From an uncultured Lachnospiraceae bacterium (lineage in GTDB: Bacteria > Bacillota > Clostridia > Lachnospirales > Lachnospiraceae), in the NCBI GenBank assembly GCA_902796355.1, contig CADBOU010000101.1, positions 1 through 55,672 of the forward strand: a stretch of DNA of 55,672 bases, given 5' to 3'. Shown piece by piece: positions 1-54,753 of this stretch (position 1 is the first letter of the stretch; every line of letters starts with the position of its first letter). The position numbers were made by a program, and so were the translations under genes. The notes below the pieces were generated by a model, which worked only from the letters and a program-made list of their open reading frames with translations, was not told the DNA's origin and did not search any database.

Positions 1-300
1 GGAAAGTCCGGGCTTCACAGGGCAGGATGCCGGATAACGTCCGGCGGAGGCGACTCCAGGGATAGTGCAACAGAAATAAACCGCCCGTCTTGATGGCGGG
101 TAAGGGTGGAAAGGCAGTGTAAGAGACTACCGCCCGGCCGGTGACGTCCGGGGCTCTGTAAACCCCATCCGAAGCAAGGCAGAGCAAAGCAATGCGGCGG
201 CCCGTCGTGCTTTGCGGTAGCCGCGATGAGCCTGGCCGGCAACGGCAGGCCAAGATAGATGACTGTTCATGACAGAACCCGGCTTATCGTCTTGCTTAAG
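1..300 (+). ncRNA. rnpB: RNase P RNA (bacterial type A), 5' end cut off by the window edge
   Basis: The window opens in the conserved P4 strand GGAAAGTCCGGGC. The 3' P4 strand ACAGAACCCGGCTTA lies at 272-286, and a hairpin terminator follows. The 75-aa minus-strand ORF at 15..242 lies inside the RNA and is discounted. Confidence 0.85.
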
Positions 301-302
301 TA

Positions 303-42836: not shown

Positions 42837-42865
42837 GTGCAGAGAATCAGAAAGGAATGATACCT

Positions 42866-43561
42866 ATGAAGCGCGTGCTTCTTAAACTGTCCGGAGAGGC
42901 TTTGGCTGGTCCGAAGGGGACTGGATTCGACGAAGATACATGTCTGGGTGTTGGCCGTCAGGTTAAAGAGCTTGTTGATGAGGGAATGCAGATTGCTGTC
43001 GTCACAGGCGGCGGTAATTTCTGGCGCGGCAGACAGAGTCCGGAGATGGATCGCAGCAGCGCTGACTCCATCGGTATGCTTGCAACTGTGATGAACTGTG
43101 TTTATGTATCAGACGTATTCAGAAGAGTCGGTCTGAAAACCAGTATTTATACTCCGTTTGCATGCGGATCTTTCACCAAAGTATATAACAAGGATGCGGC
43201 GATAGCTTCACTTGAGCATGGTGAAGTTGTGTTCTTTGCCGGCGGAACAGGCCATCCGTTCTTTTCAACTGATACCGGAGCGGTCTTGCGTGCGCTGGAG
43301 ATTGACGCGGACGCCATGCTCCTGGCTAAAAATATCGATGGCGTTTATGACAGTGATCCAAAAGAAAATCCTGATGCTAAACGGTTTGATGAGATATCCA
43401 TCGATAAAGTCATTGATCAAAACCTGAAAGTCATTGATATGACAGCTTCCATCATGTGTCGAGACAACAAGATGCCGCTTCTTATCTTTGCTCTGCAGGA
43501 AGAAAACTCGATTGTCAGAACTGCCGGCGGGGAAAAAACCGGAACAGTCGTAACAGTATAA
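42866..43561 (+). CDS. pyrH: UMP kinase
   Basis: MKRVLLKLSGEAL and GGGNFWRG. ATG 42866 lies 9 nt after AAAGGA and is preferred over 42857. Confidence 0.9.
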   Translation: MKRVLLKLSGEALAGPKGTGFDEDTCLGVGRQVKELVDEGMQIAVVTGGGNFWRGRQSPEMDRSSADSIGMLATVMNCVYVSDVFRRVGLKTSIYTPFACGSFTKVYNKDAAIASLEHGEVVFFAGGTGHPFFSTDTGAVLRALEIDADAMLLAKNIDGVYDSDPKENPDAKRFDEISIDKVIDQNLKVIDMTASIMCRDNKMPLLIFALQEENSIVRTAGGEKTGTVVTV

Positions 43562-43586
43562 CAGCGATTTTGCGAGGAGGGTTATT

Positions 43587-44138
43587 ATGCACGAATCATT
43601 GGAAAAATGCGAATCAAAGATGACTAAAACTTTATCAAAACTGGATGATGATCTCGGCGCAATTCGTGCCGGTCGAGCTAACCCGCACGTACTTGATCAT
43701 ATTCGTGTAGACTATTACGGTTCTCCAACACCGATTCAGCAGACTGCGAACATATCCGTTCCCGAGCCGCGTATTATTCAGATTGCTCCGTGGGATAAAA
43801 GCATGGTTCCCGAGATTAATAAAGCGATTCAGGCGTCAGATCTGGGCATCAACCCGACTGTCGACGGGAATAATATCCGTCTGATTTTCCCTGAGCTGAC
43901 TGAGGAGAGACGTAAAGACCTCGTGAAAGATGTTAAAAAGAAAGGCGAAGATGCCAAAGTTGCTTTGCGCAATATTCGCCGCGAAGGAAATGATATCATT
44001 AAGAAGCTTAAGGGATCGGATTTCTCTGAAGATACGATCAGCGATATGCTGGATGATCTGCAGAAGATGATTGAGAAGTATTCGAAAAAAGTTGATGAGG
44101 CTGTTGACGTTAAATCCAAAGAGGTTATGACAGTTTAA
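43587..44138 (+). CDS. frr: Ribosome recycling factor
   Basis: 183 aa. Typical LDDDLGAIRAGRANPHVLD and LTEERRKDLVK motifs. Confidence 0.95.
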   Translation: MHESLEKCESKMTKTLSKLDDDLGAIRAGRANPHVLDHIRVDYYGSPTPIQQTANISVPEPRIIQIAPWDKSMVPEINKAIQASDLGINPTVDGNNIRLIFPELTEERRKDLVKDVKKKGEDAKVALRNIRREGNDIIKKLKGSDFSEDTISDMLDDLQKMIEKYSKKVDEAVDVKSKEVMTV

Positions 44139-44148
44139 AGATCATCGC

Positions 44149-44177
44149 AACGGGTGTGCCCCGCACACCCGTTTTTT
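44149..44177 (+). terminator. rho-independent terminator after frr
   Basis: AACGGGTGTGC-ccc-GCACACCCGTT followed by TTTT. Confidence 0.75.
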
Positions 44178-44199
44178 AAACAAAAAGGGGGGAGAAATC

Positions 44200-44928
44200 A
44201 TGAAAGTGCCGCGCCATGTCGCAATCATTCTGGATGGCAACGGACGCTGGGCAAAAGCAAAGGGGATGCCGCGCACATACGGTCACGTCCAGGGAGCAAA
44301 GAATGTTGAGACGATTTGCCGTGCCGCGCACAATCTTGGAATTGAATATCTTACCATGTATGCCTTTTCAACCGAAAACTGGAACAGACCGGCTGAAGAG
44401 GTCTCTGCTTTAATGCGTCTTTTACGAAACTACCTGAAGACATGTCTTTCCACTGCAAAAAAGAATAATATGCGCGTCCGCGTCATCGGTGATACGAGCC
44501 GGCTGGATGATGATATTCGCGAGAGAATCAATCAGGTTGAAGACGCATCCCGCCATTACGATGGACTTAATTTTACCATCGCAATCAATTACGGGAGCCG
44601 TGACGAAATCAAAAGAGGAGTTATTCGGCTTTGTAAGGATGTATTAAGCGGTCAAGTGAAGCCTGATGATGTTGATGAGACCATGATTTCCGGGTATCTC
44701 GACACATATGATTTACCTGATCCGGATTTGATGATTCGTACAAGCGGAGAACAGAGATTATCAAATTACCTGCTCTGGCAGCTTGCATATGCTGAATTCT
44801 ATTTTACTGATGTACCCTGGCCTGCATTTACAGAAAACGATCTGATAGCAGCTGTTCAAGCTTTCAACGAACGAGACAGGCGCTACGGCGGTGTCAATGT
44901 GTCAGAAGGGGGAGAAGAGAATGTTTAA
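44200..44928 (+). CDS. uppS: Undecaprenyl diphosphate synthase
   Basis: HVAIILDGNGRWA and IRTSGEQRLSNYLLWQLAYAEF. Confidence 0.95.
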   Translation: MKVPRHVAIILDGNGRWAKAKGMPRTYGHVQGAKNVETICRAAHNLGIEYLTMYAFSTENWNRPAEEVSALMRLLRNYLKTCLSTAKKNNMRVRVIGDTSRLDDDIRERINQVEDASRHYDGLNFTIAINYGSRDEIKRGVIRLCKDVLSGQVKPDDVDETMISGYLDTYDLPDPDLMIRTSGEQRLSNYLLWQLAYAEFYFTDVPWPAFTENDLIAAVQAFNERDRRYGGVNVSEGGEENV

Positions 44929-45724
44929 AACACGTCTTATCAGCGGCATCGTTTTAGTGATCGCTGCTCTGATTTTATTTTTAACTGGAGGAAAACTGCT
45001 TTGGGCTGCCATGATGCTGATCAGCGCAGTTGGTCTTTATGAGTTCTATAAAGCAGTGAGATTGTTCTGGGATAAGATTGCAGTGATCGGATTTTTGGCG
45101 ATGGTTGCATATTATGTTTTGCTGCTGTTTATTGATGCAGACAGAGCACTGGGGCTGATGATCTCAGGACTTATCATATTGCTCCTTGTCTTCCTTGTTG
45201 TCACTTATCCTTCTTATCAGATATCTCAATTAGGAGTTGTCGTACTGGGAGTCATATATATTCCCGTGATGCTCTCCTTTATTTATCTGACCAGAAGTCT
45301 GCCTCACGGCAAGTGCCTTGTCTGGTTAATTTTCCTTGCTGCCTGGGGCAGTGATACACTTGCCTACTGTACCGGAATGCTGATTGGAAAACATAAAATG
45401 ACACCCCGTCTTTCTCCGAAGAAGACAATAGAAGGAGGCATCGGCGGCGTTCTCGGTGCAGCTCTTCTCGGTGTCATTTATGCAGCGATCATGCATGCCG
45501 CATCTCCGGCAACCGGTGCGCACATCGGTTGGTATGCACTGATTTGTGCAGTAGGAGCAGTTATTTCCATGTTTGGTGATCTGGCTGCATCAGCGATCAA
45601 GCGCTCATTTGATATCAAGGATTTCGGTAATCTGATTCCCGGTCATGGCGGAATTCTGGATCGTTTTGATTCGATCATTATTACCGCACCGGTCATCTAT
45701 TTTCTTTGTCTGTATTTACTGTAG
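44921..45724 (+). CDS. cdsA: Phosphatidate cytidylyltransferase
   Basis: Polytopic membrane protein with the C-terminal signature SAIKRSFDIKDFGNLIPGHGGILDRFDS. ATG 44921 overlaps the uppS stop. Confidence 0.9.
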   Translation: MFKTRLISGIVLVIAALILFLTGGKLLWAAMMLISAVGLYEFYKAVRLFWDKIAVIGFLAMVAYYVLLLFIDADRALGLMISGLIILLLVFLVVTYPSYQISQLGVVVLGVIYIPVMLSFIYLTRSLPHGKCLVWLIFLAAWGSDTLAYCTGMLIGKHKMTPRLSPKKTIEGGIGGVLGAALLGVIYAAIMHAASPATGAHIGWYALICAVGAVISMFGDLAASAIKRSFDIKDFGNLIPGHGGILDRFDSIIITAPVIYFLCLYLL

Positions 45725-45745
45725 TTTTCCATGAGGGAGTCAGGT

Positions 45746-46894
45746 ATGAAACGAATTGCAGTTTTCGGATCGACCGGTTCAATAGGCACACAAACGCTGG
45801 ATGTTATCAGCAGGGAACCGGATCGTTTTAGTGCAGAGATCCTGGTTGCGGGAAAAAATGATGCATTAATGGAGCGCCAGATCAGACAGTTTCATCCGCG
45901 CAAAGCAGTGATGGGTGATCCGGAAGCGGCGGTCTCTCTTAAGGTGAGAGTGGCCGATCTTGATGTAGAAATCGGATCTGGTATGGATGCGGTTGCAGAG
46001 GCAGCTTCTGATCAGGATATTGATCTTGTACTTATGGCGCTTGTCGGCATGATCGGAATCAGGCCGACAGTGGCGGCGCTTACCGCCGGACATAAACTGG
46101 CTCTGGCCAATAAGGAAACGTTGGTATGCGCCGGGCATTTAATCATGAATCTATCCCGGGACAAGGGGATCTCTATTCTGCCGGTTGACTCTGAACACTC
46201 AGCGATTTTTCAGTGCATCGGAGAACATCCGGCATCTTCGATAGAACAAATCCTTCTGACAGCATCAGGAGGTCCGTTTTTTGGGAAAGATACGACGTTC
46301 TTAAAAACTGCCAGGCTTGAGCAGGCCTTGAATCATCCAAACTGGTCGATGGGGCAGAAAGTGACGATTGATTCCGCCAGTATGGTTAATAAGGGGCTGG
46401 AAGTGATCGAAGCAAAATGGTTGTTTGATACTCCAGTTGAACGTATCAAAGTTCTGGTGCAAAGAGAAAGCTATGTGCACTCGATGGTCCAGTTTGTTGA
46501 TGGATCTGTGTTGGCTCAGATAGCGCCTCCGGATATGCGCGTTCCGATTTCTTATGCGCTGGGATATCCTGAGCATTTTAAGCTTCCGGTCAATCCGCTC
46601 GATTTTGCGAAGATTGGCGGGATTCAGTTTTTTGAGCCTGATCTCGATACATTCCGCGGACTTGCTCTCGGATATGAGGCAGGAAGAGTCGGCGGCAGTC
46701 TACCGGCTGTCTTCAATGCAGCAAATGAAAAAGCTGTTCAGATGTATGCCGTAGGTAAAATAGGATTCTTAACTATATATGAGATCATTGAAGATTGTAT
46801 GACTCATCATCATGTCATTGAAAGCCCTTCCTTACAGCAAATCTTTGACTGTGAACAGGAGACATATGAGCGGATTGAAAGCAGGTGGGAATAG
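45746..46894 (+). CDS. dxr: 1-deoxy-D-xylulose 5-phosphate reductoisomerase
   Basis: MKRIAVFGSTGSIGTQTLDV, LANKETLV, DSEHSAIFQC. ATG 45746 sits behind GAGGGAG. Confidence 0.95.
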   Translation: MKRIAVFGSTGSIGTQTLDVISREPDRFSAEILVAGKNDALMERQIRQFHPRKAVMGDPEAAVSLKVRVADLDVEIGSGMDAVAEAASDQDIDLVLMALVGMIGIRPTVAALTAGHKLALANKETLVCAGHLIMNLSRDKGISILPVDSEHSAIFQCIGEHPASSIEQILLTASGGPFFGKDTTFLKTARLEQALNHPNWSMGQKVTIDSASMVNKGLEVIEAKWLFDTPVERIKVLVQRESYVHSMVQFVDGSVLAQIAPPDMRVPISYALGYPEHFKLPVNPLDFAKIGGIQFFEPDLDTFRGLALGYEAGRVGGSLPAVFNAANEKAVQMYAVGKIGFLTIYEIIEDCMTHHHVIESPSLQQIFDCEQETYERIESRWE

Positions 46895-47934
46895 TCTTGG
46901 GTATATTGTTAGCGATTATCATTTTTGGCTTTATCGTAGCCTTTCATGAATTCGGCCATTTCATTCTGGCTAAGGTGAATCATATCCAGGTGTTTGATTT
47001 TTCTGTTGGATTTGGCCCGTCGATCCTGCATAAGAAGATCGGCGAGACAACGTACAACCTTCGGATCATTCCTCTTGGCGGTATGTGCCAGATGGGTGAA
47101 GATAATGCTGAAGGGGAACAGGGAAACTTTAATGAAAAGCCTGTGTGGGCCCGCATGCTGGTCATATTGGCCGGTCCCTTTTTTAATTTTATACTGGCTT
47201 TTTTGCTGGCTGTTATTCTTGTTGGAATGACAGGGTATGACAAACCTGTCATCGGTAATACCATGCAAGGGTATCCGGCACAAAAGGCCGGGTTAAAAAA
47301 AGGAGATGAAGTCATTTCCATCAATGGAAGAAAGATTCACCTGTGGCGGGAGATTTCTCTTAATAATGCGATGCATCCCGGTGAGAAGGTTCATATGGTC
47401 TACCGGAGAGACGGGAAAGAACGGAGTGTTGAGATCACACCTCAGAAACAGGAAGATGGATCTTATCTGCTCGGTATCTCGCCGACAGAATCCTTTTACA
47501 CAAAGGCCAGCCCTGTCACGGCAATGCAATATGGATTATATGAAGTTACCTATAGTGTCAGATCAACACTTGATGGTCTGAAGCTTTTAATCTACCGCAA
47601 AATCGGGATTGAGCAACTATCCGGTCCGGTCGGTATAGGAAGCATTGTCAATGAATCATACAACGAAAGCAAAGATTACGGCATTAAGGCAGTCGTGATG
47701 ACAATGCTTTCGCTTGCCATATTGCTTTCGGCCAATCTGGGAGTGATGAACTTACTCCCTATCCCTGCACTGGATGGAGGCCGATTCCTGTTTTTACTGA
47801 TTGAGGCTGTCCGCCGCAAGAGGCTTCCGCCTGAAAAAGAAGGGTTTGTGCATTTGGTCGGCATGGGTCTGTTGTTGATACTCATGGCTTTTGTGATGTA
47901 TAATGATATAACTAAGCTCATTTCAGGAAGTTAA
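46885..47934 (+). CDS. rseP: RIP site-2 metalloprotease RseP/RasP (M50 family)
   Basis: HEFGHF zinc motif, a PDZ segment (GYPAQKAGLKKGDEVISING) and NLLPIPALDGG. GTG 46885 overlaps the dxr stop; the exact start is uncertain. Confidence 0.85.
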   Translation: MGIVLGILLAIIIFGFIVAFHEFGHFILAKVNHIQVFDFSVGFGPSILHKKIGETTYNLRIIPLGGMCQMGEDNAEGEQGNFNEKPVWARMLVILAGPFFNFILAFLLAVILVGMTGYDKPVIGNTMQGYPAQKAGLKKGDEVISINGRKIHLWREISLNNAMHPGEKVHMVYRRDGKERSVEITPQKQEDGSYLLGISPTESFYTKASPVTAMQYGLYEVTYSVRSTLDGLKLLIYRKIGIEQLSGPVGIGSIVNESYNESKDYGIKAVVMTMLSLAILLSANLGVMNLLPIPALDGGRFLFLLIEAVRRKRLPPEKEGFVHLVGMGLLLILMAFVMYNDITKLISGS

Positions 47935-47948
47935 GAAAGTGGTGCCAT

Positions 47949-50900
47949 TTGAAAACCAAGATTAATAAATATTCAAAGGGTGATTATTCTTCGGCTAAAC
48001 CGCAGGTTGTCTTCTCTGAGACTAATATTCAGATGACGATCGGGGAGGGCGAGTCTTATCGCGGATCATTTGTGATTAAGAGCACCAATGAGATGAATGT
48101 CCGCGGTCTGATCTATGCATCGTCGAGACGTATCAAAATCGACAAAACCGGATTTGACGGTCTGGAGAATAAGATTACTTATACATTTGACGGACGGGGA
48201 CTTTCGCCGGGAGATATTGAAATGGGAACATTCGATATCGTCTGTACAGGGGGAGAGTACTCGCTTCATTTTGCTGCTTTTGTAGAAAAACCGTTCATTA
48301 TGACCGCTTATGGCAAAGTTCAGAGTCTGAAGAACTTTGCACACCTGGCCATGATTGATTACATGGAAGCACACAGGCTGTTTAAATCTCATGATTTCTT
48401 TGAGATTCTTAAGTATGAAGATGAGCGTGTTTCATCGCTCTACAAAAACATGCGCACCTGGTCTCTCAGCGAGGAGGGCATGGAGGAATTTCTTGTTGGG
48501 ACCAAGCAGAAAGAGCGTGTAATGCTCTCGCTGCCCAAGACCAGAAAATCAATTGATTTTCTGAGCGAAACCCGTAAAACGGTGATGGTTGTTCAAAAAA
48601 ACACATGGGGTTATCTGCCGGTCCATGTCGAGGTTGACGGAGATTTCATTTATCTTGACAAATCCCGTTTCTCCACTGATGATTTTGTCGGCAACAGCTT
48701 TACACTGGAATTTGTAATTGACAGAGACAGACTGCATGACGGACGGAATTATGCCAGAATCATCCTGACAACACCATACCAGACATTAAACTATGATGTT
48801 GATGTGCTGGAAGGCCACCATTATTCCGGTCAAAGTGCACAGATCCATTCGGTTTACGGCAGAATCATTTCCGAATACCTCCCTTGTGTCTGCGGGAAAA
48901 AAGGCATATCAGAATGGGTTGAAGAGGCGCTTGAACTGATTGAGCAGCTCCATGCTCATGACAGCGAAGACCGCTTTGTGGATCTTGTACAGGCACATAT
49001 ACTCCTGCGCGGCAACCGGAAAGAAGAAGCCAAGTGGGTACTTGATAACTTTGAGTATAATCGCATTATGCTCACTGCTCAGCCTGAATTGGCTGCATAT
49101 TATCTGTTCCTGTCTGCATTGTTATCCGGTGATCAGAGGCAGATGAGACGCATTTCTGAAGAGCTGGAGAGGCTGGAGCTGCGCAATGATGATTCATGGA
49201 TGATCGTCTGTATGCTGGCACTTCTTTCTCCTTCTTACCGTGAATACCGTTCCAGGCTGGAATATCTGAAGATGAAGCATATGCGTCATGGCTTCCACTC
49301 CTTGCTGTTTTATACAAACTGCTATATTTGCTACCAGGAAAACACAGGGCTGCTTACGTCTATCGGTGCTTTCGAACTGCATGTGCTTGAATTTGCATGC
49401 AAGAGAGGGATGTTTACAGCTGAGCTGGCGGCTCAACTTGCTTCCCTGATTCCGCAAGTCAGGAGGTTTGATGAGCGGCTGTACAGGATCTTATGTCATG
49501 TTTATGATATGTTCCCCTCTGATCATGTCCTGGCAGCTATCTGTACGCTTCTGATAAAAAAGAATGAACCGGACAGCGAAGATTTTAAGTGGTATCAGAT
49601 GGCAGTTGATCAGAATCTGAATATTCCAAAACTGTATGAGTACTATATGCTCACCATATCAGAGGATCAGGTCAAGGAATCACTTCCGAGATCCATCTAT
49701 CTGTATTTTATGCATGGGGACATGCTTGACTATAAAAAGAAAGCGCTTCTGTACTCCAACATTCTGACTTATGAGGAAGAAAGCTCCCAGCTTTTTGCTG
49801 ATTATCTTAATCAGATGGAGACGTTTGCATTTAATCAATTATTGATGCGGCGTATTAATGACAGACTGCGTATCATCTATAAACGCTTCTGCAATGAAGA
49901 AATGATGACAGTTGATCAGATTCAGGCCTTAAACGATATCTGCCATGCCTACTCGATCAGTACTTCAGTTTCTAACATGCGCAATGTGCTGGTGCTCGAT
50001 GGCCAGGGAAATATCATAGAACGGGTTCCATACACTGGTCCTGATACGGTCATCTTTGTGCATGATTCTACCTCGCGGGTTATCTGGGAGTCCGAGGAAG
50101 GACGATTCTATGCAGATTCTATTCCGTATGAAACAAAGCGCCTGTTCTACGAACCGCACTTTATTGAGTTTTGCAAACGTTACATGGATACGACACACCA
50201 GAGTGTTCCGGTGACTATAGAAGAAGATGTGCTGATTCAAACTGTTCGCGATCAGGGGTTTGCATCTGCCGATCCTGAATTTGTTTTTCAGGCATGTTCA
50301 CGCCGGATATCTGACGGCGATGGTGAGGAAGATCAGTTCCTGCTTGATCTGGCCTTCCATCTGTTTGAGCAGGGATACTATAACAAGACGACGCTTTCGT
50401 ATCTGAATGCCTATTACTATGGCAGCTCATACAATATGAAAAAGCTGTGGCGCAAAGCACGCAAATATGATCTTCCGACTGAAGAACTTGCAGAGCGCAT
50501 TATGACTCAGATGCTCTTTTCTGATCAGTTGATCAGTGAAAAAGAGGTGTTTGAAAACTATGTCAGCAAAGGCGGGTATTTCCGCCTAAGACAGGCCTAT
50601 TACGCATATGCATCTCATCTGTATTTTCTTTATGACCGCATCACAGATGATGATGTGTTTGAGTTGATAGCCGACGAATTTCTGCGTGATGAGAATCTCC
50701 CTGATATCTGCAAACTGGCGCTGATCCGTTTTTACAGCACGCATCAGGCTTCAGCGGAGATAAAAAAGATTCTTAAACAATTCATGCAGGATTTTTGCGA
50801 AAAAAGAACAATATTTCCATTTTTTCTTCAGTATCCCGACTCCTGGAAAAATGAGATGTGCTTAGAGGACAAGACGGTTGTTCAGTATCAATCTAAGTTT

Positions 50901-51251
50901 GGCGGTAAAGTAAAAATTCATTACCGTGTCATTAAACCGGGACTTCAGAAGAAAGAGTTAAAATTCCAGTCTGAAGTGTTGATTCCTGCATACGGAACAA
51001 TTTATGTGAAAGTATTTGTTCTCTTTTTCCGTGAGACACTGGAATATTATTTTGAAGAATTTTCAGAAGAGAAAAGCTCGAACACACCGCGCCAGCAGTA
51101 TCGCATTGACAAGAAAGAAGGCGCTTATGGCCGGTATCAGCGGCTTAATAGATTGATTTCACTGCCGGCGGGCAGCCGTGTGCGCACTCAGGAAGCCGCA
51201 TCCTATGATCAGGAACTGAAACTGGCTGAAGAAATATTCTTGTATTATTGA
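47949..51251 (+). CDS. Large uncharacterised protein: N-terminal Ig-like beta-sandwich, long helical-repeat body, beta-rich C-terminus
   Basis: 1100-aa uninterrupted ORF 14 nt after the rseP stop. TTG start; the first ATG lies 84 nt further in. No signal peptide, TM helix or catalytic motif was recognised. I vaguely recall a Clostridia-restricted DUF family (DUF5717?) but this is unverified. Confidence 0.7.
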   Translation: MKTKINKYSKGDYSSAKPQVVFSETNIQMTIGEGESYRGSFVIKSTNEMNVRGLIYASSRRIKIDKTGFDGLENKITYTFDGRGLSPGDIEMGTFDIVCTGGEYSLHFAAFVEKPFIMTAYGKVQSLKNFAHLAMIDYMEAHRLFKSHDFFEILKYEDERVSSLYKNMRTWSLSEEGMEEFLVGTKQKERVMLSLPKTRKSIDFLSETRKTVMVVQKNTWGYLPVHVEVDGDFIYLDKSRFSTDDFVGNSFTLEFVIDRDRLHDGRNYARIILTTPYQTLNYDVDVLEGHHYSGQSAQIHSVYGRIISEYLPCVCGKKGISEWVEEALELIEQLHAHDSEDRFVDLVQAHILLRGNRKEEAKWVLDNFEYNRIMLTAQPELAAYYLFLSALLSGDQRQMRRISEELERLELRNDDSWMIVCMLALLSPSYREYRSRLEYLKMKHMRHGFHSLLFYTNCYICYQENTGLLTSIGAFELHVLEFACKRGMFTAELAAQLASLIPQVRRFDERLYRILCHVYDMFPSDHVLAAICTLLIKKNEPDSEDFKWYQMAVDQNLNIPKLYEYYMLTISEDQVKESLPRSIYLYFMHGDMLDYKKKALLYSNILTYEEESSQLFADYLNQMETFAFNQLLMRRINDRLRIIYKRFCNEEMMTVDQIQALNDICHAYSISTSVSNMRNVLVLDGQGNIIERVPYTGPDTVIFVHDSTSRVIWESEEGRFYADSIPYETKRLFYEPHFIEFCKRYMDTTHQSVPVTIEEDVLIQTVRDQGFASADPEFVFQACSRRISDGDGEEDQFLLDLAFHLFEQGYYNKTTLSYLNAYYYGSSYNMKKLWRKARKYDLPTEELAERIMTQMLFSDQLISEKEVFENYVSKGGYFRLRQAYYAYASHLYFLYDRITDDDVFELIADEFLRDENLPDICKLALIRFYSTHQASAEIKKILKQFMQDFCEKRTIFPFFLQYPDSWKNEMCLEDKTVVQYQSKFGGKVKIHYRVIKPGLQKKELKFQSEVLIPAYGTIYVKVFVLFFRETLEYYFEEFSEEKSSNTPRQQYRIDKKEGAYGRYQRLNRLISLPAGSRVRTQEAASYDQELKLAEEIFLYY

Positions 51252-51274
51252 TTTCTGTTTTAAGGGGACAGACA

Positions 51275-52564
51275 ATGGATAAGATGACCGAAAATGTTAT
51301 AGGATTTGACTTAAATGATCAGTATTGTCAGATCAGTTATTGCCATGAGGGAATGGAAGAGCCCGAGACAAAAGAAGTCGTTGGAGATAATGATAAAATT
51401 CCGCTCGCTATCGGTACATACCGCAACCGCTGGACATATGGTCAGGAGGCTATTCGTCATGGCCTGGGTGAGAATGGCGTTTTTTGCGACAGGCTGTTTT
51501 CACGGGCGCTGGCTGGCGAAACAGTAATGTTCGGCGATAAAGAAGTGAGTGCAGCCAGTCTTCTTGAAAAGTATATTGAACTGTCTCTGAGCACATACGA
51601 CCCTGTCACATATATCGTTTTTTCGGTGCCGGCATTGTCGGAAGATATTGTCAAGCTCCTCAAAATGATTGGTGAACGGATCGGTCTTGAAAAGAATCAT
51701 ACCATCGTCCAGGATTACAAAGAAAGCTTCTGTCACTTTATGTTTGATCAGCCCAAGGAGCTTTGGCAATATGAGGCTGCCTTATTTTACTGTGACAAAG
51801 AGCAAGTCTGTGCATATATGATGAAACGGATTGATACAGGATATAATCGTTACGGATCTTCTTTTGTGATGGTAGAAGAGGTTTCACACGCTCTGATGAG
51901 TGAGCTTCATGTGACATTCCCGGTTATGAATGTGGATTCTGCAATGGAAGCGGATGTGCGCTTTCTGCATTGGGTTAACGGCGTTTTTGACAGACGGCGC
52001 ATATCTTCTGTGTTTTTGACGGGAGAAGGGTTCGAGACGAACTGGTATCCAGAGACATTGAAGGTCATGTGTAATGGCAGACGTGTTTTTATCGGCAATA
52101 ATCTCTACAGTAAAGGTGCCTGCTATGAAGCGTTCAGACGTCAGATAGGGCGCAGCTCAGGTCCGGTGTATCTCGATGAATCAAAGATGACTGACCGGAT
52201 ATGCATGAAAATCAGACGCGGTGATAAAGAAGAGATGTATCCGATTGTTTCGTGGGGTGAACACTGGTATGAGTCAGACTGCACCTACGAAGTGCTGCTT
52301 GATAACAATGATCCGATTGAATTGTATCAGAATTCCCTGGCAACAGGAGAAGAAAAGACGATCACTGTCAACCTTGACGGACTTCCAAACCGTAAGAACT
52401 ATTCACTGCGACTGGTTATCCAGGCCGTTTTTCTGGATGAGAACCGTTGCCGAATCACGTTTACTGATGCCGGTTTCGGTGAGATTTTCCCGGAGACAGA
52501 TTTTTCGAAAGACGTGACAGTCATGTTAGGAGGAAGCAATGAGCAGTTTAATACTTTGTCATAA
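51275..52564 (+). CDS. Hsp70-shaped protein with degenerate nucleotide-binding loops (pseudo-chaperone candidate)
   Basis: ATG 51275 lies 7 nt after [21 protein letters not shown] aligns to DnaK [40 protein letters not shown] aligns to [35 protein letters not shown] aligns to VILVGGQTR. The C-terminal [36 protein letters not shown] resembles the SBD-beta segment (F.L.GIPPAPRG.PQIEVTFDID.NG). Confidence 0.7.
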   Translation: [429 protein letters not shown]

Positions 52565-53306
52565 ACAGAAGGCGACTCAGCCTTATAAGCTTCCTCATAT
52601 ACGATATAAGATTTATACGATTGAGGAGATGGCTTATGTCATTTTTGACAATCTGTATCTTCTTGATCACACATTGATGAGCGAATCGCTGTGCGAATGG
52701 CTAGAGGGGGAACTGGGTCTGTTTTCGTTAGCAGACAGTCTGCGGGAGCAGATTGCCAAACGCGTCTCACTTGAAGATTTTATTTTGTATTTCCTCGAGC
52801 ACACAGGGATTTATTCTACTGCGGAAATATCTGGAATCAAAGGCGTTCTGGCGGCACTCGAAGGACAGGAAGAAGTTGAAAAACAAAAGAAAAAGGCCGA
52901 TGATCTGCTGTCCATGAATGAATATGAAAATGCAATATTGGCATATAATTCGATCCTGGCAGCCACCCGCACAGATGCAGTTGATGCATCGTTTTATGGA
53001 AAGGTGTATGCCTGCCTTGGCGCAGCTTACGGCCGTCTGTTTCTCTATAAGGAAGCGGCAAAAGCCTACGCAGCCGCTTATCAGATCTGTGATGATTTTG
53101 AAATGATCAAAGCATACTTGTATGCATGCCGTCAATACATGCCGGCTGAAGAGTATCACCTGTTATTGTCAGAAAATGATTTGTTCAAAGTGGCCGATAA
53201 AGAAAACAGCCAAAAGATACATGAGTTTGAGGATTCTCTGCACAGAGAGCCGGATGACAGTCTGATTGAAGAGTGGAAATCTGCTTATCGCGAGATTCCG
53301 ATTTAA
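52539..53306 (+). CDS. Uncharacterised TPR-like helical protein
   Basis: 255 aa. ATG 52539 lies 5 nt after AGGAGG and 26 nt inside the preceding ORF. TPR-like helices YENAILAYNSILAA ... GKVYACLGAAYGRLFLYKEAAKAYAAAYQI. Confidence 0.65.
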   Translation: MSSLILCHKQKATQPYKLPHIRYKIYTIEEMAYVIFDNLYLLDHTLMSESLCEWLEGELGLFSLADSLREQIAKRVSLEDFILYFLEHTGIYSTAEISGIKGVLAALEGQEEVEKQKKKADDLLSMNEYENAILAYNSILAATRTDAVDASFYGKVYACLGAAYGRLFLYKEAAKAYAAAYQICDDFEMIKAYLYACRQYMPAEEYHLLLSENDLFKVADKENSQKIHEFEDSLHREPDDSLIEEWKSAYREIPI

Positions 53307-53316
53307 GGAGAGAAAA

Positions 53317-54753
53317 ATGTCTACAGACCGATATACAAGCCCGTTATCTCAAAGATATGCCAGCCGTGATATGCAGTATATCTTTTCCGAAGATAAAAAG
53401 TTTACTACCTGGAGAAAATTATGGATTGCTCTTGCTGAAATAGAAAAGGACCTTGGGCTGGATATTACTGATGAACAGATTCAAGAACTGAAAAAGCACG
53501 CCAATGATATCAATTATCAAGAAGCACGGGAGCGAGAGAAAATTACACGCCATGATGTGATGTCTCATGTGTATGCATACGGGCTTCAGTGTCCCAAAGC
53601 AAAGGGAATTATCCATCTGGGAGCAACATCGTGTTATGTCGGAGATAATACCGATGTGATTATCATGAAGGATGCGCTCACATTACTGCGCAGGAAACTG
53701 CTGTGTGTGATTGCTAATCTTGCTTCTTTTGCTGAAGAATACCGCTCGCTGCCAACTCTTGGATACACACATTTCCAGCCTGCACAGCCGACAACAGTCG
53801 GCAAACGCGCAACACTTTGGATTCAGGATCTGATGACTGACTATGAGTATCTGAATGATGTGCGCGACGGGTTAAAGCTTCTTGGAAGCAAAGGAACAAC
53901 CGGTACACAAGCATCGTTCCTGGAACTGTTTGACGGAGATCTTGAAAAAGTAAGAGCGCTGGATCCTATGTTGGCTGATAAATTCGGCTTCTCTGGTTGT
54001 GTTGATGTGTCAGGACAGACTTATTCGAGAAAAACTGATCTCATGGTGCTGTCTGTTTTGGAACAGATTGCTGTTACGGCATCAAAGTTCTCCGGGGATA
54101 TCAGATTACTTCAGAATCTGAAAGAAGTCGAAGAGCCGTTTGAAAAAGGTCAGATTGGATCTTCTGCCATGGCCTATAAACGTAATCCCATGCGCAGTGA
54201 AAGAATCGGATCTCTGTCACGGTTTGTCATCAGTAATACTATGAATCCGGCTATGACTGCCGCTACGCAGTGGTTTGAGAGAACCCTTGATGACTCAGCG
54301 AACAGACGGTTATCTATTGCCGAGGGATTTCTTGCAACAGACGGTATCCTGGAATTGATGATTAACGTAACCAGCGGCCTTGTTGTTTACCCCAAAGTGG
54401 TCGAAGCACATCTTAAGAGAGAACTTCCGTTCATGGCCACTGAGACAATTTTGATGGATGCAGTCAAACGGGGCGGAGACCGTCAGGTTCTTCATGAAAA
54501 AATCCGTACTGCATCGATGGAAGCTGCAGCCAAAGTAAAACAGGAAGGGCTTGACAATGATTTGATGGAAAGACTCATGGCTGATCCTGCCTTTTCGCTT
54601 GATGAAGACGGAGTTGCGCATGCTATGGATCCTTCCCGTTATATCGGTTGTGCCAGCAGCCAGACAGAGCATTATCTGAATGATGTTGTTTACCCTGTAC
54701 TCAATGAAAATAAAGAATTGCTCGAAGATATCACAGCACAGATTAATGTATAA
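53317..54753 (+). CDS. purB: Adenylosuccinate lyase
   Basis: MSTDRYTSPLSQRYAS N-terminus, GYTHFQPAQPTTVGKR, signature SSAMAYKRNPMRSE. ATG 53317 sits behind AAGGAGAG. The track start at 53266 lies inside the preceding gene. Confidence 0.95.
   Translation: MSTDRYTSPLSQRYASRDMQYIFSEDKKFTTWRKLWIALAEIEKDLGLDITDEQIQELKKHANDINYQEAREREKITRHDVMSHVYAYGLQCPKAKGIIHLGATSCYVGDNTDVIIMKDALTLLRRKLLCVIANLASFAEEYRSLPTLGYTHFQPAQPTTVGKRATLWIQDLMTDYEYLNDVRDGLKLLGSKGTTGTQASFLELFDGDLEKVRALDPMLADKFGFSGCVDVSGQTYSRKTDLMVLSVLEQIAVTASKFSGDIRLLQNLKEVEEPFEKGQIGSSAMAYKRNPMRSERIGSLSRFVISNTMNPAMTAATQWFERTLDDSANRRLSIAEGFLATDGILELMINVTSGLVVYPKVVEAHLKRELPFMATETILMDAVKRGGDRQVLHEKIRTASMEAAAKVKQEGLDNDLMERLMADPAFSLDEDGVAHAMDPSRYIGCASSQTEHYLNDVVYPVLNENKELLEDITAQINV

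What the first reader, a model, noticed from the sequence alone, without database searches (positions are those of the whole stretch)
51275..52564. Hsp70-fold protein whose ATP-binding signature loops are degenerate
**Seen in the sequence**
- The protein aligns by eye to DnaK over the nucleotide-binding domain and the beta part of the substrate-binding domain.
- Phosphate-1 DLGTT reads DLNDQ.
- Phosphate-2 DLGGGTFD aligns to CDKEQVCA.
- The adenosine-loop GG(Q/S)TR reads GEGFE.
- NEPTAA reads QDYKES.
- There is no helical lid and no EEVD-like tail.

**Inference**
ATP hydrolysis is unlikely. The fold may have been recruited as a static binding module for ORF1 or ORF3. TPR proteins classically dock Hsp70 partners in eukaryotes, but here there is no EEVD motif, so any docking would have to be different.
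Basis: partly seen in the sequence, partly recalled or inferred. Interest (0 to 1): 0.65.

Follow-up and report, generated by a model that had tools for sequence, protein, structure and literature searches.

The report
Lidless, catalytically dead Hsp70 relative
This gene encodes a very divergent relative of the chaperone Hsp70 that has lost the ATP-handling residues, one nucleotide-pocket subdomain and the helical lid, and in gut Lachnospiraceae it always sits between two TPR-repeat scaffold genes, so it probably works as a fixed binding subunit of an undescribed three-protein complex.

Summary
Window 51275-52564 (+) encodes a 429-aa protein of Pfam family DUF5716, which has no literature.

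**Hsp70 homology**
- The AlphaFold model matches only Hsp70s (Foldseek E 1e-17), across the nucleotide-binding domain (NBD) and the beta substrate-binding domain (SBDβ).
- A family profile finds DnaK by sequence (E 8.7e-6; hhalign 96 %, E 3.8e-9). MreB and FtsA score 0.3 %.

**Motifs**
- DLGTT reads DLNDQ, K70 reads I, NEPTAA reads QDYKES and GGxTR reads GEGFE.
- Subdomain IIB looks missing. There is no lid and no EEVD.
- None of 132 diverse relatives keeps all six catalytic residues.
- The replaced loops are strongly conserved and acidic, so this is repurposing, not decay.

**Context**
- The cassette DUF5717 (1100 aa, Ig-like plus TPR-like scaffold) – DUF5716 – 255-aa TPR protein is intact in every genome locus whose contig reaches both flanks.
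- The last two genes overlap by 26 nt and are fused into one protein in some lineages.

**Reading**
It is most likely an ATP-independent binding subunit of a TPR-scaffolded complex, most like Ssz1 of the eukaryotic ribosome-associated complex. This is inferred, not shown. I rate it a new variant of a known kind, of moderate to high interest.

The parts
47875..47904 (+). Promoter-like site (TTGATA-18-TATAAT, 11 of 12) inside the 3' end of rseP, 45 nt upstream of ORF1. It is a possible promoter for the cassette.
   Evidence: It is one of the two best matches (11 of 12) in the region, but the total number of sites is no higher than in shuffles, so this is weak.
47949..51251 (+). ORF1, 1100 aa, DUF5717_N + DUF5717. 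Domain order in the model: Ig-like beta sandwich (res 19-124), small helical bundle, second beta sandwich (199-286), TPR-like alpha solenoid (295-665), beta domain (667-731), second solenoid (736-969), beta sandwich (976-1052), C-terminal helices. No enzymatic domain was detected.
   Evidence: Pfam E 3e-206 and 2e-84. AF2 pLDDT 80. Foldseek finds ASH/PapD-like Ig domains of ciliary central-apparatus proteins and the CEP192 SPD-2 domain, plus the TPR scaffolds Naa15, Ctr9 and Ski3. The N-terminus at the TTG start matches homologues.
51262..51267 (+). Shine-Dalgarno-like AAGGGG, 7 nt before the ORF2 ATG.
51275..52564 (+). ORF2, 429 aa, family DUF5716. It is a divergent Hsp70 homologue with NBD about res 1-295, linker PVYLDES about 296-303, an eight-stranded SBDβ about 304-418, and an 11-residue tail.
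51308..51322 (+). Phosphate-1 loop equivalent, D12-L-N-D-Q (DnaK D8-L-G-T-T). The Asp is kept, and the Gly and both Thr are replaced.
   Evidence: In 132 relatives: D/E 129, G 34, S/T at the two Thr positions 8 and 20.
51452..51454 (+). I60, the equivalent of the catalytic Lys70 of DnaK.
   Evidence: It is K in 22/30 close relatives, but only in 21/132 diverse ones.
51710..51727 (+). Q146-D-Y-K-E-S, the equivalent of DnaK N170-E171-P-T-A-A. E150 and S151 are nearly invariant in the family.
51788..51811 (+). Phosphate-2 equivalent, Y172-C-D-K-E-Q-V-C (DnaK D194-L-G-G-G-T-F-D). There is no glycine loop, and D194 and D201 are both lost.
   Evidence: Position 172 is D/E in 90/132 relatives, but Y/H/Q in the window's clade.
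52022..52036 (+). Adenosine-motif equivalent, G250-E-G-F-E (DnaK G341-G-Q-T-R). G250 is invariant and F253 nearly so.
   Evidence: sub-alignment, E 0.09, topologically expected register..
52529..52564 (+). The end of ORF2 overlaps the translation start of ORF3. GGAGGA (52529-52534, read as Gly-Gly in ORF2) is the ORF3 Shine-Dalgarno, and the ORF3 ATG is at 52539. The overlap is 26 nt.
   Evidence: A 26-nt overlap is seen in 77/79 loci and an SD-like motif in 79/79.
52539..53306 (+). ORF3, 255 aa. It has a conserved N-terminal segment M-(G/S)-S-L-I-L-C-H-K-x-K and a small helical domain, then TPR repeats (about res 112-200) and a C-terminal WK..YR motif.
   Evidence: Family profile A4 against PDB: consensus TPR E 4.4e-9, Sti1 4e-5, SGTA 4e-4. 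Homologous to the C-terminal halves of 687-737-aa fusion proteins, E 1e-11 to 1e-23.

Best explanation
ORF2 is a true but extremely divergent Hsp70 paralogue (family DUF5716, known so far only from Lachnospiraceae).

**What it keeps and what it has lost**
- It keeps the two-lobed actin-like NBD core, a short linker and the eight-stranded SBDβ.
- It has lost the phosphate-binding glycine/threonine loops, the catalytic Lys and most catalytic acids, most or all of subdomain IIB, and the helical lid.

**Proposed mechanism (inferred)**
- It therefore cannot run the ATP-driven Hsp70 cycle.
- It acts as a nucleotide-independent binding subunit of a cytoplasmic complex with the two proteins it is always encoded with. 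These are the 1100-aa Ig-plus-TPR scaffold (ORF1, DUF5717) and the small TPR protein (ORF3).
- SBDβ, which has no lid, holds a peptide segment. This is either a segment of a partner, used as a built-in pseudo-substrate, or a client bound with low affinity.
- The remodelled, acidic and highly conserved NBD cleft serves as a protein-contact or ligand site rather than as an ATPase site.
- The closest working analogy is Ssz1 in the eukaryotic ribosome-associated complex.

**Shown:** fold and homology, loss of motifs, family-wide conservation, cassette conservation, gene fusion with ORF3, purifying selection, and probable transcription.

**Inferred:** lack of ATPase activity, physical complex formation, and the role of SBDβ.
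For: **Homology**
- Foldseek finds only Hsp70s, E 1e-17.
- The family profile hits DnaK at E 8.7e-6.
- hhalign gives 96 %, E 3.8e-9, with NBD and SBDβ each matching separately, against 0.3 % for MreB and FtsA.

**Loss of catalytic equipment**
- None of 132 relatives keeps all 6 catalytic-equivalent residues; most keep 2-3, and the window protein keeps 2.
- The G342 equivalent is Gly in 2/132.
- The loops carry net charge -4 in the window protein, and -2.4 on average in the family.
- There are 78 residues between the phosphate-2 and adenosine motifs, against 147 in DnaK, and the model shows a single helix there.
- The protein ends 12 residues after SBDβ.

**Still functional**
- G250 and G281 are invariant. 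G10, E150, S151, F253, W257, N276, A282, D398, G400, F401 and G402 are nearly invariant at 25-30 % overall identity.
- dN is 0.12-0.22 while synonymous sites are saturated.
- Metatranscriptome contigs from bovine gut cover all three genes.

**Partnership**
- The cassette is intact in 79/80 genome loci with varying flanks.
- It is also intact in distant locus L086.
- The ORF2/ORF3 overlap is 26 nt.
- ORF2-ORF3 fusion proteins exist, and one of them still sits right after a DUF5717 gene.
- ORF3 is a TPR protein, and ORF1 is a TPR-like scaffold with no enzyme domain.

**Analogy**
- Ssz1 lacks the lid and cannot run the canonical cycle. Its SBDβ is completed by Zuo1 and occupied by a Zuo1 pseudo-substrate (PMC7083937).
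- Ssz1 structures are among the Foldseek hits.
Against: - No biochemical data exist.
- The strong conservation of the cleft residues (D12, E150-S151, G250-x-G-F, R269-R270) could equally mean a non-canonical nucleotide or other ligand site.
- Some relatives keep DLG, the Lys, or the phosphate-2 Asp.
- The phosphate-2 and adenosine regions are modelled with low confidence (pLDDT 44-75). The adenosine-loop register rests on a weak sub-alignment.
- No structure-level superposition was possible.
- No complex prediction could be run, so contacts between ORF1, ORF2 and ORF3 are inferred from genomics only.
- The cassette has no J-domain protein, so the Ssz1 analogy is partial.
- The biological process the complex serves is unknown.
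Confidence: 0.6

Rival explanations
1. The NBD is still a nucleotide-binding or nucleotide-hydrolysing module that uses a non-canonical residue set. Candidates are D12, D147, E150 and the invariant-looking R269-R270 pair. ORF2 would then be an active but unusual Hsp70-type motor.
For: - The cleft-lining positions are the best conserved in the family. D/E at position 12 is kept in 129/132 and G250 in 132/132.
- Subsets of relatives keep DLG (34/132), Lys (21/132) or the phosphate-2 acid (90/132).
Against: - No glycine-rich loop is present in any of 132 members.
- Both Thr of phosphate-1, T199 and D201 are almost always lost.
- The loops are net acidic, which should repel a triphosphate.
- Subdomain IIB, which forms half of the adenosine pocket in Hsp70, appears absent.
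- The retained residues differ from clade to clade, as expected if catalysis is not under selection.
Confidence: 0.15
2. The remodelled acidic cleft is a sensor site for something other than a nucleotide, such as a metal ion, a basic peptide or a metabolite. On this reading ORF2 is a ligand-gated regulatory subunit rather than a purely static one.
For: - The substituted loops are strongly conserved and carry excess negative charge.
- purB lies within 6 kb downstream in most loci, and a divergent aminotransferase gene lies upstream in 38/80.
Against: - No ligand can be inferred from sequence.
- The linkage to purine genes may simply be lineage synteny.
- The flanks differ between genera.
Confidence: 0.15
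3. ORF2 is a filament-forming actin/MreB/ParM-like cytoskeletal protein rather than an Hsp70 derivative.
For: It shares the ASKHA core fold, and it has a reduced IB and IIB, as some actin-like proteins do.
Against: - hhalign against MreB and FtsA gives Prob 0.3 %.
- All top structural and sequence hits are Hsp70s.
- An SBDβ homologous to that of DnaK is present, including the LxGIPxAPRG...D-K-x-T-G-K region.
- The ATP-binding loops needed for polymer dynamics are missing.
Confidence: 0.03
4. The resemblance to Hsp70 is a chance by-eye alignment, and the gene is an unrelated or decaying ORF.
For: Single-sequence searches find nothing. There is no Pfam HSP70 hit, and phmmer against PDB gives E > 1.
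Against: - Profile and structure searches are significant and specific.
- 1047 family representatives exist.
- Purifying selection is clear.
Confidence: 0.01

Closest known systems
Canonical Hsp70 / DnaK (Pfam PF00012)
   Same: - The domain order NBD - linker - SBDβ is the same.
- Sequence homology is detectable over DnaK 2-500.
- Conserved landmarks include the first-strand G-x-D, the 'G-x-x-A-(K)-R' helix, the last NBD helix (..GA..) and the SBDβ turn D-x-G-x-G (DnaK DKxTGK).
   Different: - DLGTT, K70, DLGGGT, D201 and GGxTR are all missing.
- The NBD is about 90 residues shorter, with IIB missing and IB reduced.
- There is no SBDα lid and no C-terminal tail motif.
- It falls below the Pfam HSP70 threshold. 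Only 2 of 110 family members give even a sub-threshold hit.
- No dnaJ or grpE lies next to it.
Ssz1 / HSPA14, the non-canonical Hsp70 of the eukaryotic ribosome-associated complex
   Same: - It is a lidless Hsp70 that cannot run the canonical cycle.
- It works as an obligate subunit of a stable complex.
- Its SBDβ is completed and occupied by a partner's N-terminal segment (PMC7083937).
- It is among the structural hits (6sr6, 5mb9, 7x3k).
   Different: - Ssz1 keeps a full-size NBD. From my own background knowledge, it also binds ATP.
- Its partner is a J-domain protein (Zuo1) on the ribosome.
- Here the partners are TPR proteins with no J domain, the NBD loops are replaced, and the organisms are bacteria.
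Hsp70-TPR co-chaperone pairs (HOP/Sti1, CHIP, SGTA, Tom70) that dock on the EEVD tail
   Same: An Hsp70-fold protein is paired with a TPR protein. The ORF3 profile hits Sti1, SGTA, Tah1, Tom70 and PP5 TPR domains among others.
   Different: - There is no EEVD.
- The conserved tail is explained by gene overlap.
- In some lineages the TPR protein is fused to the C-terminus, so no free C-terminus is available for docking.
- Carboxylate-clamp residues were not established.
- This pairing is known as a eukaryotic arrangement (background knowledge).
Pfam DUF5716 / DUF5717 (families of unknown function)
   Same: ORF2 and ORF1 are clear members, with E 7.6e-95 and 3e-206.
   Different: The names carry no functional or structural description, and no paper in the searched library discusses either family.

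Membership tests
Hsp70 / DnaK | Two-lobed ASKHA nucleotide-binding domain homologous to that of DnaK | tested here: met
   Foldseek E 1.8e-17, and all 50 top hits are Hsp70s. hhalign against the Hsp70 NBD panel gives Prob 96.4 %, E 1.4e-9.
Hsp70 / DnaK | Phosphate-1 motif D-L-G-T-T | tested here: not met
   It reads D12-L-N-D-Q. In the family, Gly occurs in 34/132, and S/T at the two Thr positions in 8 and 20 of 132.
Hsp70 / DnaK | Catalytic Lys70 and Glu171 | tested here: not met
   K70 is I60, and E171 is D147, which is conservative. In the family, K occurs in 21/132 and D/E in 61/132.
Hsp70 / DnaK | Phosphate-2 motif D-L-G-G-G-T-F-D | tested here: not met
   It reads Y172-C-D-K-E-Q-V-C. No member of 132 has the GGG loop.
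Hsp70 / DnaK | Adenosine motif G-G-x-T-R | tested here: not met
   It reads G250-E-G-F-E. The second Gly is present in only 2/132. The register comes from a weak sub-alignment plus fold topology.
Hsp70 / DnaK | Subdomain IIB (adenosine pocket wall, exchange-factor site) | tested here: not met
   There are 78 residues between the phosphate-2 and adenosine motifs, against 147 in DnaK. The model shows one helix (220-238) there. Confidence in this region is low.
Hsp70 / DnaK | Eight-stranded beta substrate-binding domain after a short hydrophobic linker | tested here: met
   The model has eight strands at 307-417. hhalign against the SBDβ panel gives Prob 46.5 %, E 2e-4, query 307-406 to DnaK 397-498. 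The linker PVYLDES aligns with DVLLLDV.
Hsp70 / DnaK | Helical lid (SBDα) and C-terminal tail | tested here: not met
   The protein ends at residue 429, 12 residues after the last strand.
Hsp70 / DnaK | Scores above the Pfam HSP70 gathering threshold | tested here: not met
   The window protein has no HSP70 hit. Of 110 relatives, 2 give sub-threshold hits, best E 0.0022.
Hsp70 / DnaK | ATP binding and hydrolysis coupled to substrate release | not testable with these tools
   This needs purified protein.
DUF5716 (PF18980) | Match to the family model above threshold | tested here: met
   E 7.6e-95, 317.7 bits against a cut-off of 34.7. All 110 relatives scanned also match.
Ssz1-type non-canonical Hsp70 (RAC) | Lidless Hsp70 in an obligate complex with a J-domain partner on the ribosome | tested here: not met
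   Lidless: yes. No J domain was found in ORF1 or ORF3 by Pfam or NCBIfam. Ribosome association cannot be tested. It may work like Ssz1, but it is not a member.
EEVD / TPR-clamp co-chaperone system | C-terminal EEVD-type tail on the Hsp70 and a TPR partner | tested here: not met
   The TPR partner is present. There is no EEVD, the tail is constrained by the overlapping ORF3 start, and fusions abolish the free C-terminus.
Actin / MreB / FtsA-type ASKHA proteins | Closer to these families than to Hsp70 | tested here: not met
   hhalign Prob is 0.3 % for E. coli MreB and FtsA, against 82 % for the single DnaK NBD.
Known anti-phage defence systems (PADLOC-DB) | Any of the three proteins matches a defence-system model | tested here: not met
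   None of the three proteins gives a hit at E <= 1.

The most novel reading that the evidence does not exclude
Lachnospiraceae carry a previously undescribed, ATP-independent machine derived from Hsp70. It would be a lidless pseudo-Hsp70 whose missing lid is functionally replaced by a TPR protein (ORF3, fused to its C-terminus in some lineages). The conserved hydrophobic-basic N-terminus of ORF3 (SLILCHKxK) would sit in the SBDβ groove as a built-in pseudo-substrate. The whole assembly would be mounted on a 1100-aa Ig/TPR scaffold. That would make it a bacterial counterpart of eukaryotic Hsp70-TPR and RAC-type assemblies, which are usually regarded as eukaryotic inventions.
Probability: 0.25. 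Interest if true: 0.8.

Novelty: new variant of a known kind. Interest (0 to 1): 0.6.

Why it matters
- Hsp70s are among the best-studied proteins, and non-hydrolysing, lidless versions are known mainly from eukaryotes (Ssz1/HSPA14). From my own background knowledge, pairing of Hsp70 with TPR partners is also seen as a eukaryotic feature.
- This is a large bacterial family. It has at least 1047 clusters at 50 % identity and occurs in at least 566 species-level genomes. All named ones are Lachnospiraceae, which are abundant in human and ruminant guts.
- The family has stripped the Hsp70 fold of its ATPase equipment while keeping SBDβ, and it is genetically welded to TPR proteins.
- It gives structures and a testable role to two Pfam DUFs.
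- It offers a natural experiment on what an Hsp70 fold can do without ATP.
- It points to an unknown, conserved and transcribed cytoplasmic complex in important gut commensals.

Tried and rejected
- **Single-sequence searches found nothing useful.** Pfam and NCBIfam gave only the DUFs. phmmer against PDB gave only a chance potassium-channel hit. A 30-sequence close-relative profile hit DnaK only at E 0.87.
- **Literature.** Searches for DUF5716 and DUF5717, 'Hsp70-like' with Lachnospiraceae, and non-canonical bacterial Hsp70 found nothing relevant.
- **PADLOC.** No hit, so a known defence system is rejected.
- **The search for related loci with the diverse alignment failed** because no stretch was conserved enough. 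The close alignment was used instead.
- **The metagenome scan with the fusion protein returned only two distant loci**. These were still useful, because they show the unfused cassette.
- **Global hhalign mis-registers lobe II.** It aligned the GEGFE strand to the IIB hairpin of DnaK. A restricted sub-alignment gave the expected register, but at E 0.09.
- **dN/dS could not be computed** because synonymous sites are saturated.
- **A conserved C-terminal tail as an EEVD analogue was considered and rejected.** Its Gly-Gly codons are the ORF3 Shine-Dalgarno, and the tail is not conserved where the genes do not overlap.
- **An actin/MreB-like identity was rejected**.
- **A Pfam scan of all 132 relatives exceeded the residue limit**. 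It was repeated with 110.
Full report
**The gene and its neighbours.** The finding's coordinates are exact. An ATG at 51275 is preceded by AAGGGG at a 7-nt spacing, and it opens a 429-codon frame that ends at 52564.

- Upstream lies a 1100-codon ORF (47949-51251). It follows the stop of rseP by 15 nt.
- Downstream lies a 255-codon ORF (52539-53306). It starts inside the last 26 nt of ORF2, behind a GGAGGA that ORF2 reads as Gly-Gly.
- purB follows ORF3.
- Pfam places ORF2 in DUF5716_C (E 7.6e-95) and ORF1 in DUF5717_N + DUF5717 (E 3e-206 and 2e-84).
- ORF3 gives only a sub-threshold TPR_2 hit.
- NCBIfam and PADLOC give nothing useful.
- No paper in the searched library discusses either DUF.

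**Is it an Hsp70 fold?** Yes.

- An AlphaFold2 model built on 30 relatives has pLDDT 77 and pTM 0.77.
- All 50 top Foldseek PDB hits are Hsp70-family chains: DnaK, BiP, Hsc70, mortalin, Hsp110/Sse1, Ssb and Ssz1. E-values go down to 1.8e-17, and the alignments (515-571 columns) span both the nucleotide-binding domain and the beta substrate-binding domain.

Single-sequence searches do not see the relationship. Profiles do:

- A 132-sequence alignment of diverse family representatives, 25-72 % identical to the window protein, hits only Hsp70s among PDB sequences. The best is M. tuberculosis DnaK at E 8.7e-6. A second weak stretch lies on the SBDβ segment 'L.GIPPAPRG.PQIEVTFDID..G...V.A.D..TGK'.
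- I built a real Hsp70 panel from E. coli DnaK plus eight plasmid-borne Hsp70-family genes from seven bacteria and one archaeon. Against it, hhalign gives Prob 96 %, E 3.8e-9, over query 6-408 and DnaK 2-500.
- Taken separately, the NBD scores 96.4 % (E 1.4e-9) and SBDβ 46.5 % (E 2e-4). E. coli MreB and FtsA score 0.3 %.
- Only 2 of 110 relatives give even a sub-threshold Pfam HSP70 hit.

So this is a genuine but very remote Hsp70 paralogue, not a generic actin-fold protein.

**The signature loops.**

| DnaK | Window protein | Comment |
|---|---|---|
| K70 | I60 | catalytic Lys lost |

- The adenosine mapping comes from a sub-alignment that is weak on its own (E 0.09). It is the register expected from fold topology, and it continues into the well-aligned last NBD helix (N276...G281-A282 with DnaK N366...G374-A375).
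- Of the six classic catalytic positions (D8, K70, E171, D194, T199, D201), the window protein keeps D8 and a conservative Asp for E171.
- Among the 132 relatives none keeps all six. Most keep two or three, none has a GGG loop, and the second Gly of the adenosine motif is present in 2.
- Which residues survive differs by clade. The Lys is present in 22 of 30 close relatives but not in the window's own clade. The phosphate-2 acid is present in 90 of 132 but in none of the 30 close relatives. This mosaic is what relaxed selection on catalysis would produce.

- The NBD is about 90 residues shorter than DnaK's.
- Between the phosphate-2 and adenosine motifs there are 78 residues instead of 147. 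The model shows a single helix (220-238) where DnaK has subdomain IIB. IIB forms one wall of the adenosine pocket and is the exchange-factor site (background knowledge).
- This part of the model is of low confidence (pLDDT 44-75 over residues 160-270), so the absence of IIB rests mainly on the spacing.
- The linker PVYLDES aligns with DnaK's DVLLLDV.
- Eight beta strands follow (307-417), and the chain ends 12 residues later. There is no lid and no EEVD.

**Degenerate, or repurposed?** The substituted positions are not drifting.

- At 25-30 % overall identity, G250 and G281 are invariant.
- G10, E150, S151, F253, W257, F272, G274, N276, L277 and A282 are invariant or nearly so. So is the D398-x-G-F-G turn of SBDβ.
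- The 12 loop positions that replace the phosphate and adenosine loops carry a net charge of -4 in the window protein and -2.4 on average in the family. That is the opposite of what a triphosphate site needs.
- Against the two closest genomes, dN is 0.12-0.22 while synonymous sites are saturated, for all three genes.
- Contigs from bovine gut metatranscriptomes cover ORF1, ORF2, ORF3 and purB at similar low depth. DNA carry-over cannot be excluded.

The cleft has therefore been converted to some other conserved use.

**The cassette.**

The 80 best are Lachnospiraceae (Dorea, Faecalimonas, Faecalicatena, Mediterraneibacter, [Ruminococcus] torques, Sellimonas, Bariatricus, Extibacter, Claveliimonas and others), apart from two evidently mis-binned MAGs.
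- Every named member of the more distant clusters that I looked up is also 'Lachnospiraceae bacterium'.
- The window's own organism occurs in sheep, goat and cattle gut metagenomes.
- A DUF5717 gene lies directly upstream in 79 of 80 loci, and an ORF3 homologue directly downstream in 79 of 80. Both exceptions are contig ends.
- The ORF2/ORF3 overlap is 26 nt in 77 of 79 loci, with an SD-like motif in all 79.
- The flanks vary. The window and its two closest relatives have dxr-rseP upstream, 38 of 80 loci have a divergent aminotransferase, and purB lies within 6 kb downstream in most.
- A distant metagenomic locus with non-overlapping genes has the same three genes.
- Eight of the 150 listed family representatives are 687-737-aa fusions of DUF5716 with an ORF3 homologue (BLASTP E 1e-11 to 1e-23). 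One such fusion sits directly after a DUF5717 gene.

Gene fusion, translational coupling and strict co-occurrence are strong genomic evidence that the three proteins work together, and that ORF2 and ORF3 touch.

**The partners.**

- A profile of ORF3 and its relatives, including the fused forms, hits consensus TPR proteins at E 4.4e-9. It also hits Sti1, SGTA, Tah1, Tom70 and PP5 TPR domains.
- The most conserved part of ORF3 is its N-terminus, M-(G/S)-S-L-I-L-C-H-K/R-K/R. The Cys is invariant even in the fusions, where it follows SBDβ after a linker of about 20-35 residues.
- The ORF1 model (pLDDT 80) has two N-terminal Ig-like sandwiches, two long alpha solenoids separated by a beta domain, and a C-terminal sandwich.
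- Its Foldseek hits are ASH/PapD-like Ig domains (ciliary central-apparatus proteins, CEP192 SPD-2) and the large TPR scaffolds Naa15, Ctr9 and Ski3.
- None of the three proteins shows a catalytic domain, a J domain, a signal peptide or a defence-system signature.

**Most likely mechanism.**

- ORF2 cannot run an ATP-driven chaperone cycle. This is inferred from the loss of motifs.
- It most likely acts as a nucleotide-independent binding subunit in a cytoplasmic complex scaffolded by ORF1 and ORF3.
- Its lidless SBDβ would hold a peptide segment, either of a partner or of a client at low affinity.
- The nearest precedent is Ssz1 of the ribosome-associated complex. It lacks the lid and cannot undergo the canonical cycle. 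Its SBDβ is completed by extra strands of Zuo1 and occupied by a Zuo1 N-terminal pseudo-substrate (PMC7083937). Ssz1 structures are among the fold hits.
- By analogy, I propose that the conserved hydrophobic-basic N-terminus of ORF3 docks on SBDβ, and that ORF3 stands where the lid would be. This is a hypothesis, and I could not test it.
- The biological process served is unknown.

**Rivals.**

- A non-canonical nucleotide site is possible, given how conserved the cleft is. The absence of any glycine loop, the acidic charge and the missing IIB argue against it.
- A non-nucleotide ligand site is also possible.
- An actin-like filament former and a chance resemblance are rejected.

**The tail.** The C-terminal LGG(S/I/N)(N/D)G(Q/K)F(N/S)S(L/M)S is conserved in the clade. 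However, its codons are also the ORF3 Shine-Dalgarno, start codon and conserved N-terminus. Where the genes do not overlap, the tail differs (TVFPFSLIS in L086). It is therefore not evidence of an EEVD-like docking motif.

**Verdict.**

Loss of ATPase function and partnership with ORF1 and ORF3 are well supported by sequence and genomics, but they are unproven biochemically.
- 'Degenerate' should read 'replaced and conserved'.
- This is a new variant of a known kind: a bacterial, lidless, IIB-less pseudo-Hsp70 tied to TPR proteins, in a large family catalogued only as DUFs.

Noticed in passing
window 1-302 (+): A bacterial RNase P RNA (class A, Rfam RF00010, 259.6 bits) is cut off at its 5' end by the start of the window. 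No tRNA genes occur anywhere in the window.
   Followed up: no
window 52529-52564: ORF2 and ORF3 overlap by 26 nt. The ORF3 Shine-Dalgarno GGAGGA is read as Gly-Gly in ORF2. The same overlap occurs in 77/79 related genomes, so the conserved ORF2 tail is a dual-coding constraint.
   Followed up: yes
window 53266-53317: The purB ORF as listed starts at a TTG at 53266, inside ORF3. The likely real start is the ATG at 53317 (MSTDRYTSPL...), 11 nt after the ORF3 stop. No terminator-like site lies between ORF3 and purB, so read-through transcription is possible.
   Followed up: partly
window 42857-47934: The genes upstream include dxr (45731-46894) and rseP (46885-47934). The ORF sizes and order before them look like the usual pyrH-frr-uppS-cdsA run, which I did not verify. 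Only the window and its two closest relatives (L005, L006) have rseP directly in front of the cassette. Other genera have a divergent aminotransferase there (38/80 loci).
   Followed up: partly
L045 and L068 (genome contigs): Two MAGs labelled Parabacteroides distasonis and Bacteroidaceae carry a typical Lachnospiraceae-type cassette (48-49 % identity, same gene order). These contigs are probably mis-binned.
   Followed up: no
PDB entries 7sqc, 7n6g and 9ijj: The same cryo-EM entries of the ciliary central apparatus supply top fold hits for ORF1 (ASH-type Ig-domain chains). Two of them (7sqc, 7n6g) also supply an Hsp70 chain hit for ORF2. This is probably a coincidence of very large assemblies, but an Hsp70 used as a structural subunit next to ASH-domain proteins is a curious parallel.
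   Followed up: no
window 47949-51251 (ORF1 residues 19-124 and 199-286): Two cytoplasmic PapD/ASH-like Ig sandwiches sit at the N-terminus of a bacterial TPR scaffold with no signal peptide. This is an unusual combination for a bacterial cytoplasmic protein.
   Followed up: partly
L086 1907-4099: In the distant metagenomic locus, a subtilase with an fn3 domain lies directly upstream of the DUF5717 gene, and valyl-tRNA synthetase lies downstream. This shows again that only the three-gene core is conserved.
   Followed up: no
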